Notes: generated from the sequence alone by a model not told the origin. 64,000 nucleotides of DNA from Octopus sinensis (GCF_006345805.1 NC_043018.1:20088001-20152000); one strand, 5' to 3'. Positions 30,964 through 63,139 are shown, counted from the first letter of the stretch. Numbers and translations are program-made.

Positions 30964-31579
30964 AGTTTCTTCCTGTTTCTATCTACAAAATCCTCTCTCA
31001 GAGATCATCTTGGCCCAGGGCTATAGTAGAAAACACTTGCCCAAGGTGCTGCTCTGTGGGACTGAACACAAAGCCACAACGCTGGAAAGCAAGTTCTGAA
31101 ACCACTCAGCCATGCCTACCTCTAAAACACACACACACACATTTCAGATAATTCTATTTTTTATTCAGTTTATTCCAATTTGAAAAGCAGGGAACTAACA
31201 AATAAATGTTAAAAGTCAATGCATATTCTACACAAAAGACATTGTGTTCCAGGGTATCAATACCGAAAATAAGGTGTGTACAATATACATTAATAAACAC
31301 CGTATACACCCATGTATCATGTATTAATATTCATTTATTGCTAACAAAGAAATGCCAAAAGCCATTGCACATTGTGCACAAGAAATATTGTTTTGCAGGG
31401 TTTCAGTACCCCACCCAAAAAAACAGTGTGTATATCATACATGGATACACATTATACATTCATATTTACAGTATATAAGGCTGTGAGTTGGCAGAATTGT
31501 CAGTACACTGGCAGAATGCCTTCTGGTATTTCCTTCATCTGGGTTCAAATCCCGCTGAGGTTGACTTTGCCATTCACTT

Positions 31580-31960
31580 TTTTCCTTGTTTTCAGTCATT
31601 TGACTGTGGCCATGCTGGAGCACTGTCTTTAGTAGAATAAATCAACCCCAGGACTTATTCTTTGTAAGCCTAGTACTTATTCTATCATTCTCTTTTTACT
31701 GAACCGCTAAGTTATGGGGATGTAAACACACCAACATCTGTTGTCAAGCAATGGTGGAAGGACAAACACATACACACACATATATATATATAAATATATG
31801 ATGGGCTTCTCTCAGTTTCCGTCTAATCCACTCACAAGGCTTTGGTTGGCCAGAGGCTATAGTAGAGGACACTTGCCCATGGTGCCATGCAGTGGGACTG
31901 AAACCAGAACCCTGTAGTTGGGAAGCGAGCTTCTTACCACACAGTCATGCCTACACCTAT
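31580..31960 (-). mobile_element. SINE-B copy, joined to a plus-strand SINE-A head fragment at ~31480-31575
   Basis: Family homology. Confidence 0.82.
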
Positions 31961-32169
31961 CTCTTCATGTTCTTCAAAAAATCCCAAAAGGTTGGACAGT
32001 GGGGTTGATCTAATCAACTTAACCCTTGACAACCGATGTTGGTGTGTTTACGTCCCCGTTAATTTATTATGAATTTGCTTCTGTGCAGGGTGTCAAAATA
32101 AATTCGACAGTTTGCATAAAAGGCAAACGAAGACTGGTGGTGTAGAAAACAAACAGATGTATTAGTATA

Positions 32170-33422
32170 ACACTCAGGAATAGAAACAGTCTTTTACGTT
32201 TCGAGCCTATGCTCTTCTACAGAAAGGGACACAGAAAAAACAAGGAGAGAAAGAAGGAAATAAAAAAATATGTGTGTAGTGGCTACTCTCCAACGTCACT
32301 GACTGCTCAAAAATACATCGAGCTGTTCTTAAAAAAGCGGGGCTCAAATCATCAAGCGTATCCCAAACATCCTGTATATATGAAGGGTCTGTTTTAAGCC
32401 AATCACACACATTTAATAAGACCGAGCAAAATATTGAATGTTCTATTTTAAAGACACCCTAGCCACCATCTGTTTTCCTCCTACACTCAGGAATAGAAAA
32501 AGTCTTTTACGTTTCGAGCCTACGCTCTTCTTCAGAAAGGGACACAGAAAAAACAAGGAGAGAAAGAAGGAGAGAAAAAAATATGTGTGTAGTGGCTACT
32601 CTCCAACGTCACTGACTGCTCAAAAATACATCGAGCTGTTCTTAAAAAAGCGGGGCTCAAATCATCAAGCGTATCCCAAACATCCTGTATATATGAAGTG
32701 TCTGTTTTAAGCCAATCACACACATTTAATAAGACCGAGCAAAATATGAATGTTCTATTTTAAAGACACCCTAGCCACCATCTGTTTTCCTCCTACACTC
32801 AGGAATAGAAAAAGTCTTTTACGTTTCGAGCCTACGCTCTTCTTCAGAAAGGGACACAGAAAAAACAAGGAGAGAAAGAAGGAGAGAAAAAAATATGTGT
32901 GTAGTGGCTACTCTCCAACGTCACTGACTGCTCAAAAATACATCGAGCTGTTCTTAAAAAAGCGGGGCTCAAATCATCAAGCGTATCCCAAACATCCTGT
33001 ATATATGAAGTGTCTGTTTTAAGCCAATCACACACACATTTAATAAAACAGAGCAAAATATTGAATGTTCTATTTTAAAGACACCCTAGCCACCATCTGT
33101 TTTCCTCCTACACACAGGAATAGAAAAAGTCTTTTACATTTCGAGCCTACGCTCTTCTTCAGAAAGAGACACAGAAAAAAAACAAGGAAAGAAAAATATG
33201 TGTGTAGTGGCTGCTCTCCAACGTCACTGACTGCTCATAAATACATCGAGCTGCTCTTAAAAAAGCAGGGCATAAAATCATCAAGCATATCCCAAACATC
33301 CTGTATATGTGTGTATGTAATAGCATCTGGTATATACGAAGGGTCTGTTTTAATAAGAGAGAGCAAAATATTGAATGTTCTATTTTAAAGACACCCTAGC
33401 CACCATCTGCTTTCCTCCTACA
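32170..33422 (-). repeat. Tandem array, 4 x ~313 bp, one minimal hammerhead per unit
   Basis: Unit starts at 32170, 32483, 32795 and 33110. Minus-strand motif cuuu CUGAAGA a GAGC-guag-GCUC GAAAC GUA aaag at 32502-32543 and 32814-32855; variants at 32189-32230 (CUGUAGA) and 33129-33170 (GAAAU). Confidence 0.9.
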
Positions 33423-33664
33423 TTTCTTTTATCCTCGGGATTTAGATAAATCAATACACTATCCTTTGTGTTGTTTGCTTATCTCCTGTTTTTTTGTTTT
33501 TTTTTTCTTGTCCTTGTATTCGCTGAACCTAATGACTTCCTCGACTGCTCCATGTTTGCTCTCAACAAGCTGTTCTTTCATTTTCATGAGGTGGCCTCTT
33601 TCGAAATCTCCTTCAACATTCTTCATGTTACATGTTTGTGCGGGTATAATCACACATGCACGCA

Positions 33665-34094
33665 CACCTATTTTTCCGTATTTCCTCTCTAAACTCTAGA
33701 ACAACCCTTCAATGCCCAAATCTTTGCCCAAAATGGCAAAATCACAAGATATAAAAAAACAACAACAATAATTATCGTTTAGAAAGAAAGTATACAAGAC
33801 AGGGATGTTGTTGTTGTTGTTTGTGGTGGTGATGGTGGTAGTGGTGGTGGCGGCGGCAGTTGTGTTAATGGTGGTGATGGTATTGGTGGAAATGAGAGAG
33901 CCCTATGGTAATTATTCTGGCTCTTTCCATTCTGAGTTCAAATCTTGCTGAGGTCACCTTTGCCCTCCTCCACCCCCACAACATTAGTCCTTCCAGAGTT
34001 GATGTAAAATGAAGTACCAGTAATGTAGTCAGGTCAATTTAATCACCAAATCATCTCCCCACCCATCGTCCAAATTTCAGTTCTTGTGCATCTG
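33665..34094 (+). repeat. Left arm of a ~430 bp inverted duplication
   Basis: Reverse complement of 36549-36982 with few substitutions. Confidence 0.93.
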
Positions 34095-34809: not shown

Positions 34810-34975
34810 ACTGTGTTTTTTTTCTCTCTGTGTATCTTTCTGTTGAAGAGCGTAGGCTCGAAACGTTAAAGACTTGTTTTATTTATATTTCCTGAGCGCC
34901 ATACTAATACAATTGTTTGTTTGTTTTCCACCTGCCTTCGTCTTTTGTCTATTTTCATAAAGCTTCCCGTTATAT
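34810..34975 (+). mobile_element. E1 hammerhead-bearing short element
   Basis: ucuuu CUGUUGA a GAGC-guag-GCUC GAAAC GUU aaaga at 34835-34872; ends in (TA)n. Confidence 0.75.
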
Positions 34976-41920: not shown

Positions 41921-42723
41921 CCTCTTCGTCTTTCAGTTGTCTTCTTGTAATGATTCACCTTAGAAATAATACAATTTGCAGCCACGCAACCATCATGGTT
42001 GGCATCATTGCTGTTGTTGTTGTTGTTGTTGTCGTTGTGGTGTGATTGAAATCTCCAGTAGACAAGCTTAGTTATTCATTAACTTATTTCATTTGTGTGG
42101 TGGTAGTAGTAGTAGTAGTGGTGGTGGTGGTGGTGGTAGTCATTACCATCGTCATCGTCGCTGTGGTGGTAGGGGTAAGTCAAGAGAACTCTTCCTAATC
42201 CTGGTCATCTCTTTCCTTTATTTTTCCCTGGCTGTATCTCTTCTCCGATCTAGCGAACGATTTCTGTGTCTAGCTTCGACGGAACTTTCCTGCATCTTGA
42301 TAGTCAAAACATATTGCTGCAAACGCATCTAAGTCTCATCATGACGACGATGACGAAAATGACGTTGACGATGATGATGATGATGAAGACGATGATTTAT
42401 CAACATTATCATTACCATCGTCTCTGCCATCGTTACAATCACCGACACTGACACACCGTCATCATTGTTGTCACCTTCATCACTGCCACTGTCAGCAGCA
42501 TGAACACCACCAACCGCATTATCATCATCGTCATCATCATCATCATTTTTCTCATCATCACCACTATGAGTGTTGTCCCCATCCCCCCCATCATCATTAT
42601 TATTCCTATAATTACTACCACCACCAATACCATCATCATCATCATCGTCAATAATAATTAAAAAGATATCTATCATATTCTGATTTACTTTACAGTTCTT
42701 CTCAAAAGTATATTACATTTTAG

Positions 42724-42744
42724 ATCATCATCATCATCATCATC

Positions 42745-42776
<32 letters not shown>

Positions 42777-42910
42777 CATTATTATTATTATTAGTAGTAG
42801 TAGTATTATTATTATTATTATCATCATTATTATTATCATTATTATTATCATTATTATTATCATTATTATTATTATTATCATTATTATTATTATTATCATC
42901 ATTATTATTA

Positions 42911-42944
<34 letters not shown>

Positions 42945-42967
42945 CATCATTATCCTTAATATTATTA

Positions 42968-42998
<31 letters not shown>

Positions 42999-43295
42999 CA
43001 TCATCATCCTTAATATTATTATCATTATTATTATTATTATTATTATTATCATCATCATCATTCATTATCCTTAATATTATTATCGTTGTTATTATTATTA
43101 TCATTATTATCATTATTATTATTATTATTATTATTATCATTATTATTATCATTATTATCATTATTATTATTATTATTATTATTGTTATTATTATTATCAT
43201 TATCATCATTATCCTTAATATTATTGTTATTATTATTATTATTATTATTGTTATTATTATTATCATTATTATCCTTAATATTATTATCGTTATTA
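42724..43295. repeat. (ATT/ATC)n compound microsatellite with recurring tccttaat spacer
   Basis: Directly visible. Confidence 0.95.
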
Positions 43296-44223
43296 GCATC
43301 AGTGTGACAAGTGATATCTTCATTAAAAACCTCGTTATTAGATTTTCGGCTGATTTATGTGACTCATGCCTTTTTACCAAAGGCATGAGCATCACACCAT
43401 CTCGTTTCTCTCCACTGTAGGTATACGGGTGGCGGGTGGTGATGGTGATGGTGGTGGTGGTGGTGGTGGTGGTGGTGGTTGTGTTTAAGCCATTCGTCAT
43501 CGTCAGTGCTGGCGCCGCCATTCACCACCGTCGTTATCACCGTCATCAGCACCATCGTCATCATCACTATCACCGCCACCACTACCACCACTTTCATCAT
43601 CATCATCATCATCATCATCATCGTTTTCCTGTTCTTCATCATCTTTGTTTCCCTTCTACTCCCTTTATCATTGTTAATATCATCATCATCATCATCATCA
43701 TCATTCTAATTTGTTTTCTTGTTTCATTCGTTATCTATAAAAGAATATTACTCTTGAGAAAAATCACACCCTGTCACATCAGCACCCAGAATCACCAGCA
43801 GCTGCATCATCATTATCATCATCATCATAGATATCATCATCATCATCATCGTTATCCTGATTATAATCATCATAGATTCATCATCATCATTTTCCTGATT
43901 ACAACAATCATCATCATTGACATCATTATCATCATCTTCATCATTGTCATCTTTCTTATTACTTTCCAGCAGTCATAGTTTTGATGCATTCTTTCGCTGC
44001 ACAGCACCGTGCAGTTTTTTTTACGCACTTTTTTTGTTGCACATTCAGTGACATCTTTACTGTTTGGCTAAAAATACCTTATGTAATATTTCCTAACTAC
44101 TTTCTGGTGTTACATTCTCTACGCTCCATGTATTTGTAAAATCCCAAAGTTTTGACTACGTATTTCTCTGCATGTTGCCCTTTATTATCATTTCCAAGGC
44201 CCCTGTTATTTGAGGAGTTATCA

Positions 44224-61807: not shown

Positions 61808-62108
61808 ATATATATATATATATCATAATACTGTACAACATATACATATCACTAGTTTTACGTTGATAGGAATCAACATGCTAAAGTGTATGAAACTCGA
61901 TATTGTTCTTGTGGTGGTTGTCGTCGTCGTCGTCGTTGTGGTTAACACAAGTCAGCAAGTGGAGAAACGGTCTGCGAGGAATCTCAACTTCTTTGTCTGA
62001 TGCGGAAAAAAAAAAAACCCCAGCAATGACAACAACAACAACAACAGCAACAAACAAACAACATTCTTCTCATCAAATTTGACTGGAACTGCTTCTGCCC
62101 CCCCCCCT

Positions 62109-62145
<37 letters not shown>

Positions 62146-62276
62146 ACCGTTTCCTAAACACAAAGGAACACTCATCAATATTTTTGCATATTTACCAACA
62201 GCTTCAAGAAAGATCATTTCCATAATACAGCATGGAACTCACCGTCAGTTCTCCCGTGCCACATCTCCTCCTCAGC

Positions 62277-62810
62277 GTCATCGTCATCGTCATCATCGCC
62301 ACCACCACCACCACCGCTGCCGCCATCATCATCACCTTCATCATCAGCAGCACTATCATCATCATCATCATCACCACCACTGCCATCATCATCACCCTCA
62401 TCATCAGCACCGTCATCATCATCATCACCACCGCTGCCGCCATCATCATCACCCTCATCAGCACTGTCATCATCATCATCATCACCACCACTGCTACCAT
62501 CATCATCATCACCTTCATTGTCAGCAGCACTGTCATCATCATCATCATCATCATCACCACCACTGCCATCATCATCGCCCTCATCATCAGCAGCACTGTC
62601 ATCATCATCATCATCATCTTTTCCGCCACCACCTCCTCCTCCTCCCCTCCTCTTCCTCCTTTGTATCCTCTTCTTTCTCCTCCTATTTGCCTTCTCTCGT
62701 TCTTTTCCTCCTTCACCCCTCTCCTCTTCCCCTCCCATCTCGTTTTTCCTTCCTTTTGTTTTTCTCCTCCCCTCCTTCCTCTTCTTCTTCTTCTTTTTCT
62801 TCCCTTTGTT
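62277..62810. repeat. (CAT/CAC)n higher-order repeat followed by a polypyrimidine tract
   Basis: Directly visible. Confidence 0.92.
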
Positions 62811-63139
62811 TCTTTGCAACAAACCATGACAAACTACAAAGAACTCCAAACAATGTTCTTTGCATCTTAAGAAGTTGCTGTGTACATGCAAACAAACACA
62901 CAAAACACACACACACACACACACACTGTACATGCTGCACATACACACACATAGCTCATAAGCAGAACGAGCCACCAAGACAGTATTTATGGCTGTAGTT
63001 TAGCTCACTCCTCCAATCTCTTCACTTATGTGTTTAACGACTTGCTATAACATGCAAGCCACAAAAACACACCCCTGAACACCACCACAACGCATAAATC
63101 TTAAACTTTTGGCCTCTCTATCTATCTCTCTCTCTCTAC

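What the first reader, a model, noticed from the sequence alone, without database searches (positions are those of the whole stretch)
32110..33422. Tandem 4 x ~313 bp array with one hammerhead per unit: retrozyme-like locus
Seen: the array begins inside an E1 element and each unit has one minus-strand hammerhead with loopless ACGU stem III. Established: such minimal motifs need a partner to form a dimeric hammerhead, and animal non-LTR retrozymes are tandem units of this size. Inference: a minus-strand transcript could self-process into ~313 nt monomers and circularise. The unit also captured flanking DNA with Tc1-like terminal motifs (catcctgtata, gacaccctag), so it may be an incidental local duplication that created a new ribozyme array.
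Basis: partly seen in the sequence, partly recalled or inferred. Interest (0 to 1): 0.75.

Follow-up and report, generated by a model that had tools for sequence, protein, structure and literature searches.

The report
Duplicated Penelope-element tail with hammerhead-like motif
The four ~313-bp repeats are a local duplication of the cut-off tail of a Penelope-like jumping gene plus neighbouring unique DNA; the tail's hammerhead-like motif has a non-standard core in nearly all of its thousands of genomic copies, and it reads as a textbook core here only through a single-base change, so this is likely an ordinary duplication and not a ribozyme-driven circular-RNA element.

Summary
The tandem array is real: window 32170-33422, 4.0 copies of 312 bp.

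- **Hammerheads.** Only 2 of 4 units (32508-32535 and 32820-32847, minus strand) carry a sequence-canonical minimal hammerhead. Unit 1 reads CUGUAGA and unit 4 reads GAAAUGUA. Rfam reports no hammerhead, even at E<=10.
- **What E1 is.** E1 is the conserved ~270-nt 3' module of a very abundant Penelope-like element (PLE). An intact copy has a 1009-aa reverse transcriptase plus GIY-YIG ORF, 96%-identical terminal repeats and a (TA)n end.
- **The family core.** The PLE motif has U, not A, at core position 6. The counts are 3795 against 39 exact 28-mers in one subfamily and 3165 against 1 in another. All 22 motifs found beside PLE ORFs have U. The canonical A is therefore a point variant.
- **The unit.** It consists of 116 nt of PLE tail plus 196 nt found nowhere else in the genome. 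E1 and the flank run on unbroken at the array's two ends. This fits an in-situ DNA duplication, not a retrozyme family.
- **Expression.** No evidence could be obtained.

Verdict: an ordinary segmental duplication of a known kind of element. The conserved U6 core is a minor curiosity.

The parts
32106..32285 (-). 5'-truncated 3' tail ('E1') of a Penelope-like element. Its sense strand is the window's minus strand. Its 3' end lies at ~32106 and its truncation point at 32285.
   Evidence: Aligns at 86-94% with 26 dispersed copies. The family shows a 5'-truncation profile and leads into an RT plus GIY-YIG ORF.
32170..33422 (.). Tandem array, 4.0 x 312 bp. Each unit is 116 nt of the PLE tail plus 196 nt of locus-specific DNA.
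   Evidence: TRF, unit identities, and the genome search showing full-length matches only here.
32191..32226 (-). Unit 1 hammerhead-like motif with the family's non-canonical core: CUGUAGA, U at position 6, loop AUAG.
32504..32539 (-). Unit 2 sequence-canonical minimal hammerhead: CUGAAGA-A-GAGC GUAG GCUC-GAAACGUA. The predicted cleavage is between 32508 and 32507.
   Evidence: Helices I and II are the local minimum-energy fold.
32816..32851 (-). Unit 3 sequence-canonical minimal hammerhead, identical to that of unit 2. The predicted cleavage is between 32820 and 32819.
33131..33166 (-). Unit 4 motif with A at position 6 but GAAAUGUA, so the stem III tetrad is AUGU rather than the palindrome ACGU.
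32286..32481 (.). Captured locus-specific DNA of unit 1. It is repeated at 32599-32793, 32911-33108 and 33212-33422.
   Evidence: Only the 4 array copies plus 2 weak partial matches exist in the genome. There is no significant similarity to the PLE tail.
34811..34972 (+). Another truncated PLE tail, of the CUGUUGA subfamily, ending in (TA)n. Its motif CUGUUGAAGAGCGUAGGCUCGAAACGUU lies at 34840-34866.
10720..10912 (+). A third, decayed PLE tail between (TA)n tracts. Its motif at 10788-10814 has 3 mismatches.

Best explanation
The array is an in-situ DNA-level tandem duplication of a segment made of the 5' two-thirds of a truncated Penelope-like-element (PLE) tail plus 196 nt of adjacent unique DNA, and it most likely has no ribozyme function.

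Shown directly:
- The unit is unique to this locus.
- The PLE tail and the flank run on uninterrupted at the left and right ends of the array.
- The repeat junction (..CCTCCTAC|ACTCAGG..) shares a 3-nt ACA microhomology with both parental sequences.
- Unit 4 is much older than units 1-3 (12-13% against 0.6-2.6% mismatches).
- The hammerhead-like motif belongs to the conserved ~270-nt 3' module of an abundant PLE. It sits ~137 nt from the 3' end of both terminal repeats of intact copies.
- The motif has the layout described for PLE 'minimal hammerheads': no helix III loop, a 4-5-bp helix I and an unpaired base before helix II.
- Its master sequence reads CUGU(A/U)GA, so it has U where all active hammerheads have A6.

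Inferred:
- The A at position 6 in units 2-4 is a neutral point change, one of about 1% of such copies. It happens to restore the textbook core.
- The duplication arose by slippage or unequal exchange.
- The family motif is a catalytically impaired relative of the PLE minimal hammerhead.
For: Array and uniqueness:
- Array geometry.
- With the whole unit as query, only the 4 array copies match over its full length. The other 44 listed matches cover unit positions ~1-120 only (40 of 1417 candidates were scored).
- The 189-nt unique part has 6 candidates, all scored: 4 in the array and 2 partial at 75-76%.
- The window's E1 aligns with the family without a break across 32169/32170.

PLE identity of E1:
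- Among 29 copies, shared homology decays stepwise upstream: 27, 23, 14, 12, 6, 4, then 2 copies.
- Two long copies share ~1.9 kb ending at E1. Their frames carry RT-like (..RYIDD..) and GIY-YIG-like (..IYCISC..C..YI.QTGRRL..R..EH..) strings; these motif names are my recollection.
- The endonuclease-part search gave 17725 candidates. 150 were scored, all at E<=4e-103.
- L109 has direct repeats 1091-1868 and 5595-6377 at 96%, the motif in both repeats, and a (TA)n end.
- The nearest Atlas clusters combine RVT_1, GIY-YIG and HTH_animal.

Position 6:
- Exact 28-mers with U number 3795, with A 39, with C 54 and with G 7.
- In the second subfamily, U numbers 3165 and A numbers 1.
- Of 29 distinct PLE copies examined, 22 motif instances were found and all 22 have U.
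- A6 copies occur on both indel backgrounds: 22 of 30 lack the 10-nt block, against 7 of 9 in an unbiased U6 sample.
- Of the 30 A6 loci fetched, 26 are solitary.

Papers:
- PLE minimal-hammerhead features and their low, dimer-only activity: PMC4209133, sections 5 and 11 and passages.
- (TA)n insertion bias and tandem or inverted insertions of PLEs: PMC8557442, passages.
- Mutations in the CUGA U-turn give low activity: PMC9901934, passages.

Folding:
- The 312-nt monomer has z = +1.24, and 90 of 100 shuffles fold at least as well.
- The best two-unit structure containing the double hammerhead is -69.6 kcal/mol, against -85.1 unconstrained.
Against: - Units 2 and 3 do carry a complete canonical core 312 nt apart in direct orientation, with a palindromic ACGU. 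That is exactly the arrangement required for a dimeric minimal hammerhead.
- Helices I and II are the minimum-energy fold of the local 50-nt domain.
- Animal non-LTR retrozymes are reported to derive from PLE terminal repeats (bioRxiv 10.64898/2026.07.22.740005, abstract and section 14). A PLE tail in tandem is therefore the right raw material.
- Between the two PLE subfamilies, the ~38-nt motif block differs only at N7 and H17, the two core positions a hammerhead leaves free. This hints at hammerhead-like constraint on the masters despite U6.
- A6 (39 copies) is commoner than G6 (7 copies) among the variants.
- Nearest-neighbour energies ignore tertiary contacts and co-transcriptional folding.
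- Cleavage and transcription were not tested.
Confidence: 0.8

Rival explanations
1. Nascent retrozyme. A minus-strand transcript of the array would pair the ACGU tetrads of units 3 and 2 into a double hammerhead and cut after GUA in both. That would release a 312-nt RNA with a 5'-OH and a 2',3'-cyclic phosphate, which a tRNA ligase would circularise.
For: - There are two identical canonical cores 312 nt apart on one strand.
- Helices I and II are the local minimum-energy fold.
- The layout matches PLE minimal hammerheads, which showed some dimer-dependent cleavage in vitro (PMC4209133, passages).
- Unit size and low G+C fit animal non-LTR retrozymes (PMC7229834, passages).
- Retrozymes are reported to derive from PLE terminal repeats.
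Against: - The unit is found at one locus only.
- The canonical A is a ~1% point variant of a U6 family.
- Only 2 of 4 units are canonical.
- Rfam gives no hammerhead match at E<=10.
- The monomer is not more structured than shuffles.
- The double hammerhead is ~15 kcal/mol above the minimum.
- Published minimal hammerheads cleave poorly even as dimers.
- No promoter or transcript is known for the minus strand.
Confidence: 0.07
2. The array was made by reverse transcription, not by DNA duplication. This would be either rolling-circle copying of a circular RNA or the tandem insertions that PLEs themselves produce.
For: - PLEs commonly insert as partial tandems (PMC8557442, passages).
- Other loci show PLE tails in tandem: L017 has three tails ~430 bp apart and L028 has partial tails 107 bp apart.
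Against: - The repeated unit lacks the PLE 3' end (32106-32169), which occurs once, outside the array.
- The unit instead contains 196 nt of non-PLE DNA that exists nowhere else.
- E1 and the right flank are continuous with the first and last units. An inserted multimer would not leave that pattern.
- Unit 4 is far older than units 1-3, which implies stepwise growth in place.
- A second locus, C19 with 619 bp x 2.0 at 99%, likewise duplicates a tail together with a SINE and unique DNA.
Confidence: 0.05
3. The PLE module is not of hammerhead descent at all. It would be a conserved 3' RNA element, for example a stem-loop that the element's reverse transcriptase recognises, and would resemble a hammerhead only by chance.
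For: - U6 is universal in the masters.
- The whole ~270-nt module, not only the motif, is conserved between subfamilies whose remaining 3' UTRs cannot be aligned.
- One PLE clade, the Naiads, is reported to thrive without canonical hammerheads (PMC8557442, passages).
- My rough information estimate, which is not a tool result, is that a one-mismatch minimal hammerhead turns up about once per few hundred kb.
Against: - The motif sits in the terminal repeats where PLE hammerheads are described.
- It shares four further features of published PLE minimal hammerheads: a bulged base before helix II, a 4-5-bp helix I, no helix III loop, and the GAAA and NUH elements.
- Subfamily differences fall at N7 and H17 only.
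Confidence: 0.2

Closest known systems
Minimal hammerheads (min-HHR) in the terminal repeats (pLTRs) of metazoan Penelope-like elements (Cervera & de la Pena 2014, PMC4209133)
   Same: - The motif lies in both pLTRs of an RT plus GIY-YIG element.
- It has no helix III loop, a 4-5-bp helix I and an unpaired base at the 5' end of helix II.
- It carries the GAAA box and a GUH cleavage triplet.
- It is spread in thousands of copies, mostly solitary, as truncated tails.
   Different: - The family core reads CUGU(A/U)GA, with U at position 6.
- Helix II is 4 bp, not 7-8 bp.
- The only core variant that I saw reported in that paper is the U3-A8 covariation (section 5).
Animal non-LTR retrozymes (Cervera & de la Pena 2020, PMC7229834; Li, Clavereau & Pollet 2026 preprint)
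   Same: The array has head-to-tail repeats of ~300 bp, low G+C, one type-I-like hammerhead motif per unit, and sequence kinship with a PLE terminal repeat.
   Different: - Retrozymes are multi-copy families, whereas this unit is unique to one locus.
- Two-thirds of the unit is captured non-repeat DNA.
- Only 2 of 4 motifs are canonical.
- No loop-loop contacts are evident.
- The predicted RNA is not unusually structured.
- No expression is shown.
Canonical type-I hammerhead repeats of this same genome (Rfam RF00163 hits, e.g. G000:C16:25146363 and 25146794)
   Same: They are short AT-rich repeats, and one of them is a 431-bp x 2.0 tandem.
   Different: - They score 34-48 bits on the Rfam model, above the 34-bit cut-off.
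- They have a 2-bp helix III capped by the palindromic loop AUGU and a 6-bp helix I.
- The window's motifs get no Rfam match.
Ordinary microhomology-mediated segmental tandem duplication
   Same: - The unit boundaries fall in unrelated sequences sharing 3 nt.
- The flanks are continuous with the terminal units.
- The units have graded ages.
- A second, similar duplication lies on C19.
   Different: Nothing, apart from the accident that the duplicated piece holds a hammerhead-like motif.

Membership tests
Hammerhead ribozyme (type I / minimal) | Core box C3 U4 G5 A6 N7 G8 A9 | tested here: inconclusive
   The box is met in units 2, 3 and 4 (CUGAAGA). It is not met in unit 1 (CUGUAGA). It is also not met in the parent family: 3795 U against 39 A, then 3165 U against 1 A, and 22 of 22 motifs beside PLE ORFs have U.
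Hammerhead ribozyme (type I / minimal) | G12 A13 A14 box, A15.1-U16.1 pair and NUH cleavage triplet | tested here: met
   Units 1-3 read GAAACGUA|A. Unit 4 reads GAAAUGUA|A.
Hammerhead ribozyme (type I / minimal) | Helices I and II flanking the core | tested here: met
   Helix II is GAGC/GCUC with loop GUAG, after one bulged A. Helix I is CUUU/AAAG, 4 bp. Both form the minimum-energy fold of the 50-nt domain at -7.4 kcal/mol.
Hammerhead ribozyme (type I / minimal) | Helix III, within the molecule or through a dimer | tested here: inconclusive
   There is no loop, so only a 4-bp ACGU/ACGU helix between two copies is possible. The double hammerhead scores -13.9 against -21.2 kcal/mol for two 50-mers, and -69.6 against -85.1 in the two-unit transcript.
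Hammerhead ribozyme (type I / minimal) | Match to the curated covariance models (Rfam Hammerhead_1 and relatives) | tested here: not met
   No match at gathering score in the window, and no hammerhead family among the 5 matches at E<=10. Rfam models require a helix III hairpin, so this does not exclude a minimal form.
Hammerhead ribozyme (type I / minimal) | Self-cleavage | not testable with these tools
   This needs in-vitro transcription of dimeric constructs.
Non-LTR retrozyme | Tandem units of ~150-450 bp, each with a type I hammerhead | tested here: inconclusive
   The array has 4 units of 312-315 bp, but only 2 carry a fully canonical motif.
Non-LTR retrozyme | A mobile family: the whole unit recurs at many loci | tested here: not met
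   Full-length matches occur only at this locus. The 189-nt non-PLE part has only the 4 array copies plus 2 weak partial hits.
Non-LTR retrozyme | Expressed as linear and circular monomer RNA | not testable with these tools
   No run on record as RNA holds the stretch. Contigs of four runs of unknown kind cover mainly the dispersed-repeat parts.
Penelope-like element (for the 'E1' repeat) | Single ORF with a reverse transcriptase followed by a C-terminal GIY-YIG endonuclease | tested here: met
   L109 has a 1009-aa ORF. RVT_1 scores 32.0 bits (cut-off 29.6) at residues 392-581. GIY-YIG scores 16.9 bits (below the 22.6 cut-off) at residues 812-845. The nearest Atlas clusters carry RVT_1, GIY-YIG and HTH_animal. 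L110 has a 975-aa ORF.
Penelope-like element (for the 'E1' repeat) | Pseudo-LTRs from partial tandem insertion, variable 5' truncation, microsatellite target | tested here: met
   Direct repeats are 96% alike in L109 and 92% in L110. (TA)n lies at the 3' ends. Inverted and tandem tails appear in L005, L017, L028 and L029.
Penelope-like element (for the 'E1' repeat) | Hammerhead motif in the pLTR | tested here: inconclusive
   A motif with the minimal-hammerhead layout lies in both pLTRs, but it has U at position 6.

The most novel reading that the evidence does not exclude
An apparently still-competent Penelope-like lineage keeps, in about 7000 or more tails, a hammerhead-shaped module whose U-turn reads CUGU instead of CUGA. 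The lineage has an intact 1009-aa ORF and 96%-identical terminal repeats. Its subfamilies differ only at the two positions a hammerhead leaves free. Either this is a new working core variant, or it is a ribozyme-derived module re-used for another task. In this array a single U-to-A change has rebuilt two textbook cores 312 nt apart. That makes the array a natural experiment in how a retrozyme could be born from a PLE tail.
Probability: 0.1. Interest if true: 0.65.

Novelty: new member of a known kind. Interest (0 to 1): 0.28.

Why it matters
As found, it matters little. It is one more truncated Penelope-like-element tail, caught in an ordinary local duplication.

Two points may interest specialists.
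- A very abundant PLE lineage conserves a minimal-hammerhead look-alike with U at the normally essential position 6. This bears on whether PLEs need an active ribozyme at all.
- The array, and a second locus on C19, show how DNA-level duplication plus a point change can place two canonical minimal hammerheads in tandem. That is the starting material that retrozyme models require.

A simple cleavage assay of A6 against U6 dimers would settle both points.

Tried and rejected
- **RNA evidence.** The look-up of sequencing runs listed no holder on record as RNA.
- **Laying four runs of guessed kind (X1, X2, X4, X6).** This gave heavy cover only on the dispersed-repeat parts. One low-depth contig (<=2.8) each in X1 and X2 lay over part of the unique stretch. 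There was no joint at the predicted cleavage sites. This says nothing either way.
- **Laying the two DNA holders and two further runs (X19, X20, X15, X10).** The aim was to see whether the repeat junction exists in other individuals or species. The request was sent seven times and never answered because the machine was busy.
- **The idea that the 196-nt part is an inverted, decayed PLE tail**, prompted by inverted pairs I2-I4. Rejected: local alignment scores of 19-24 lie within the shuffle range (means 17-20, maxima 25-30).
- **The idea that A6 copies form an amplified subfamily.** Rejected: the apparent excess of a 10-nt deletion came from a biased comparison set. An unbiased U6 sample shows the same deletion in 7 of 9 copies, against 22 of 30 for A6 copies.
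- **Long open frames in the window.** Ten were scanned and none has a Pfam family. tblastn with the PLE ORF found nothing in the window at E<=1e-3.
- **Fold of the genome's own canonical 431-nt repeat.** It gave z = -4.46, but a (TA)n tract pairing with itself drives that value, so I do not use it as a contrast.
- **Earlier notes of this scan.** There are none for this genome or this sequence.
- **Papers.** Searches found no paper on hammerheads in PLEs of this animal group beyond a count of Rfam hits in one genome paper.

Full report
**Observation**

Tandem Repeats Finder reports one array at window 32170-33422, with period 312, 4.0 copies, 93% matches and 3% indels. The units are 32170-32481, 32482-32793, 32794-33108 and 33109-33422. 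Units 1-3 are 97.4-99.4% identical. Unit 4 is 86.6-88.0% identical to them, with 28-29 gap columns.

On the minus strand each unit holds a motif of the form CUUU-CUGxAGA-A-GAGC-GUAG-GCUC-GAAAyGUA-AAAG.
- The strict pattern CUGANGA..GAAACGUA is met in units 2 and 3 only (32508-32535 and 32820-32847). None of 100 shuffles gave a match.
- Unit 1 has U at core position 6 (CUGUAGA).
- Unit 4 has GAAAUGUA.
- Rfam gives no match at gathering score in the window. Among the 5 matches at E<=10 in 31500-34000, none is a hammerhead.

The array is therefore confirmed, but 'one hammerhead per unit' holds for two units of four.

**What the unit is made of**

I searched the 2.72-Gb genome with the whole unit.
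- Only the four array copies match over its full length.
- The other 44 listed matches cover unit positions ~1-120 alone (40 of 1417 candidates were scored).
- The remaining 189 nt, searched alone, gave 6 candidates, all scored. Four are the array copies and two are partial matches of 75-76% over at most 92 nt.

The 196 nt show no significant similarity to the repeat on either strand. No terminal inverted repeat bounds them. I found nothing to support 'Tc1-like terminal motifs'.

**What E1 is**

Twenty-six dispersed copies align with window ~32106/32127-32285. On the window's plus strand their left end is fixed and abuts (TA)n, while their right end varies. The element's sense strand is therefore the window's minus strand, the same strand as the motif.

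Among 29 copies chosen by the 5' part of a longer copy, shared homology decays stepwise upstream. The counts are 27 copies at 0, then 23, 14, 12, 6, 4 and 2 at about -100, -200, -300, -500, -900 and -1300 nt. This is the profile of 5'-truncated retroelements.

Two long copies share ~1.9 kb ending at E1. Their frames contain RT-like and GIY-YIG-like strings (those motif names are my recollection). A search with the endonuclease part found 17725 candidates. The 150 that were scored all had E<=4e-103, and some lie in open frames of up to 1009 aa.

Copy L109 (G000:C10:29230500-29238500) looks intact.
- It is flanked by direct repeats 1091-1868 and 5595-6377 that are 96% alike.
- The downstream repeat ends in (TA)n.
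- L110 has the same build, with a 975-aa ORF and repeats 92% alike.
- The nearest Atlas clusters combine RVT_1, GIY-YIG and HTH_animal.

This is the architecture of endonuclease-bearing Penelope-like elements. Their pseudo-LTRs, tandem or inverted insertions and (TA)n bias are described in PMC8557442 (passages).

The 3' UTRs of the two subfamilies can be aligned only over their last ~270 nt, which is E1. E1 is thus the conserved 3' module of this PLE. The window's copy is a tail truncated at 32285. There is no PLE ORF in the window.

**The motif in its family**

In L109 and L110 the motif lies in both terminal repeats, ~137 nt from their 3' end. That is where PLE 'minimal hammerheads' are described. 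Their published layout matches: no helix III or loop 3, a 4-5-bp helix I, an unpaired base at the 5' end of helix II, and low cleavage seen only in dimers or trimers (PMC4209133, sections 5 and 11 and passages).

The family core, however, is CUGU(A/U)GA.
- Exact 28-mers with U at position 6 number 3795. Those with A number 39, two of which are units 2 and 3. Those with C number 54 and with G 7.
- In the second subfamily the counts are 3165 with U and 1 with A.
- Beside PLE ORFs, all 10 distinct motifs in 13 distinct places and all 12 motifs found in 16 further places have U. The other four places gave no motif by my pattern.
- The two other tails in the window (34840-34866 and 10788-10814) also have U.

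Mutations in the CUGA U-turn give low activity in a comprehensive mutational scan (PMC9901934, passages). That A6 is invariant in natural hammerheads is my recollection.

The A6 copies are not a subfamily.
- 26 of the 30 fetched loci are solitary.
- A6 occurs on both backgrounds of a 10-nt indel, in the same proportion as an unbiased U6 sample: 22 of 30 against 7 of 9 lack the block.

The canonical look of units 2-4 therefore comes from a single-base change of the kind carried by about 1% of copies.

**How the array arose**

The repeated segment starts inside the tail at 32170 and ends in unique DNA at 33422. The tail's own 3' end (32106-32169) occurs once, outside the array. The window's E1 aligns with the family without a break across 32169/32170. 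Unit 4 runs on into the downstream sequence.

The repeat junction ..CCTCCTAC|ACTCAGG.. shares ACA with both parents (read). Unit 4 is much more diverged than units 1-3. This is the signature of stepwise in-situ DNA duplication, not of an inserted reverse-transcribed multimer.

A second locus (G000:C19, 619 bp x 2.0, 99%) likewise duplicates an A6 tail together with (TA)n, a SINE and unique DNA.

**Would it work as a ribozyme array?**

In favour:
- Units 3 and 2 provide two identical canonical cores in direct orientation, each with a palindromic ACGU.
- Helices I and II are the minimum-energy fold of the local 50-nt domain.

Against:
- The domain-swapped double hammerhead scores -13.9 kcal/mol, against a minimum of -21.2 for two 50-mers.
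- In the 366-nt transcript spanning units 3 and 2, the best structure containing the double hammerhead is -69.6, against -85.1 unconstrained.
- The predicted 312-nt monomer is not more structured than shuffles. Its z-score is +1.24, and 90 of 100 shuffles fold at least as well.

These are nearest-neighbour estimates and ignore tertiary contacts. Expression could not be judged.

**Context**

The genome does hold Rfam-grade type I hammerheads. Seven matches pass the cut-off among 74 scored candidates. One is a 431-bp x 2.0 tandem, and the core pattern of that small family occurs 19 times. Those have a 2-bp helix III with a palindromic loop and a 6-bp helix I, unlike the window's motifs.

Earlier notes of this scan on other genomes reached similar 'truncated PLE tail' verdicts for retrozyme-like finds. 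I treat them as leads only.

**Verdict**

It is best explained as an ordinary local duplication of a truncated PLE tail plus flank.

Its two canonical motifs are accidental point variants of a family whose conserved core is non-canonical. The one feature that may deserve a bench test is that conserved U6 core in an apparently competent PLE lineage. Subfamily differences are confined to N7 and H17. The rebuilt A6 pair in this array offers a natural control.

Noticed in passing
L109 (G000:C10:29230500-29238500), L110 (G000:C11:52031000-52039000): These are apparently intact Penelope-like elements. They have ORFs of 1009 and 975 aa, terminal repeats 96% and 92% alike, and a CT-rich, CA-repeat-rich 3' UTR. 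The endonuclease-part search gave 17725 candidates, so this may be one of the most abundant repeats of the genome.
   Followed up: partly
G000:C16:25146363-25146839 (L116/L117); also L111, L114, L115: This is a small family of Rfam-grade type I hammerheads (34-48 bits) in a ~230-nt repeat. One locus is a 431-bp x 2.0 tandem at 98%, and two loci hold inverted pairs. The core pattern occurs 19 times. These are better retrozyme candidates than the window's array.
   Followed up: partly
G000:C19:45218897-45221924 (L051), locus 1005-2260: This is a second local duplication, 619 bp x 2.0 at 99%. Each unit holds a PLE tail with the canonical A6 core, (TA)n, a SINE and unique DNA.
   Followed up: partly
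window 31800-31960 and 32025-32059: These are copies or fragments of a very abundant short interspersed repeat, present in many of the fetched loci. It was the most deeply covered part in the laid runs.
   Followed up: no
window 792-3871, 42662-43521, 62030-62998 and others: Long stretches are open in several overlapping frames on both strands. None of the ten scanned has a Pfam family. They look like low-complexity CT/GA-rich DNA, possibly PLE 3' UTR-like sequence.
   Followed up: partly
against 75/76: The U-to-A variant at core position 6 is about 30 times more frequent in the CUGUAGA subfamily (39 against 3795) than in the CUGUUGA subfamily (1 against 3165). Within the first subfamily, A (39) outnumbers G (7). 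A difference in subfamily age or mutation bias is the likely cause, but neither was tested.
   Followed up: no
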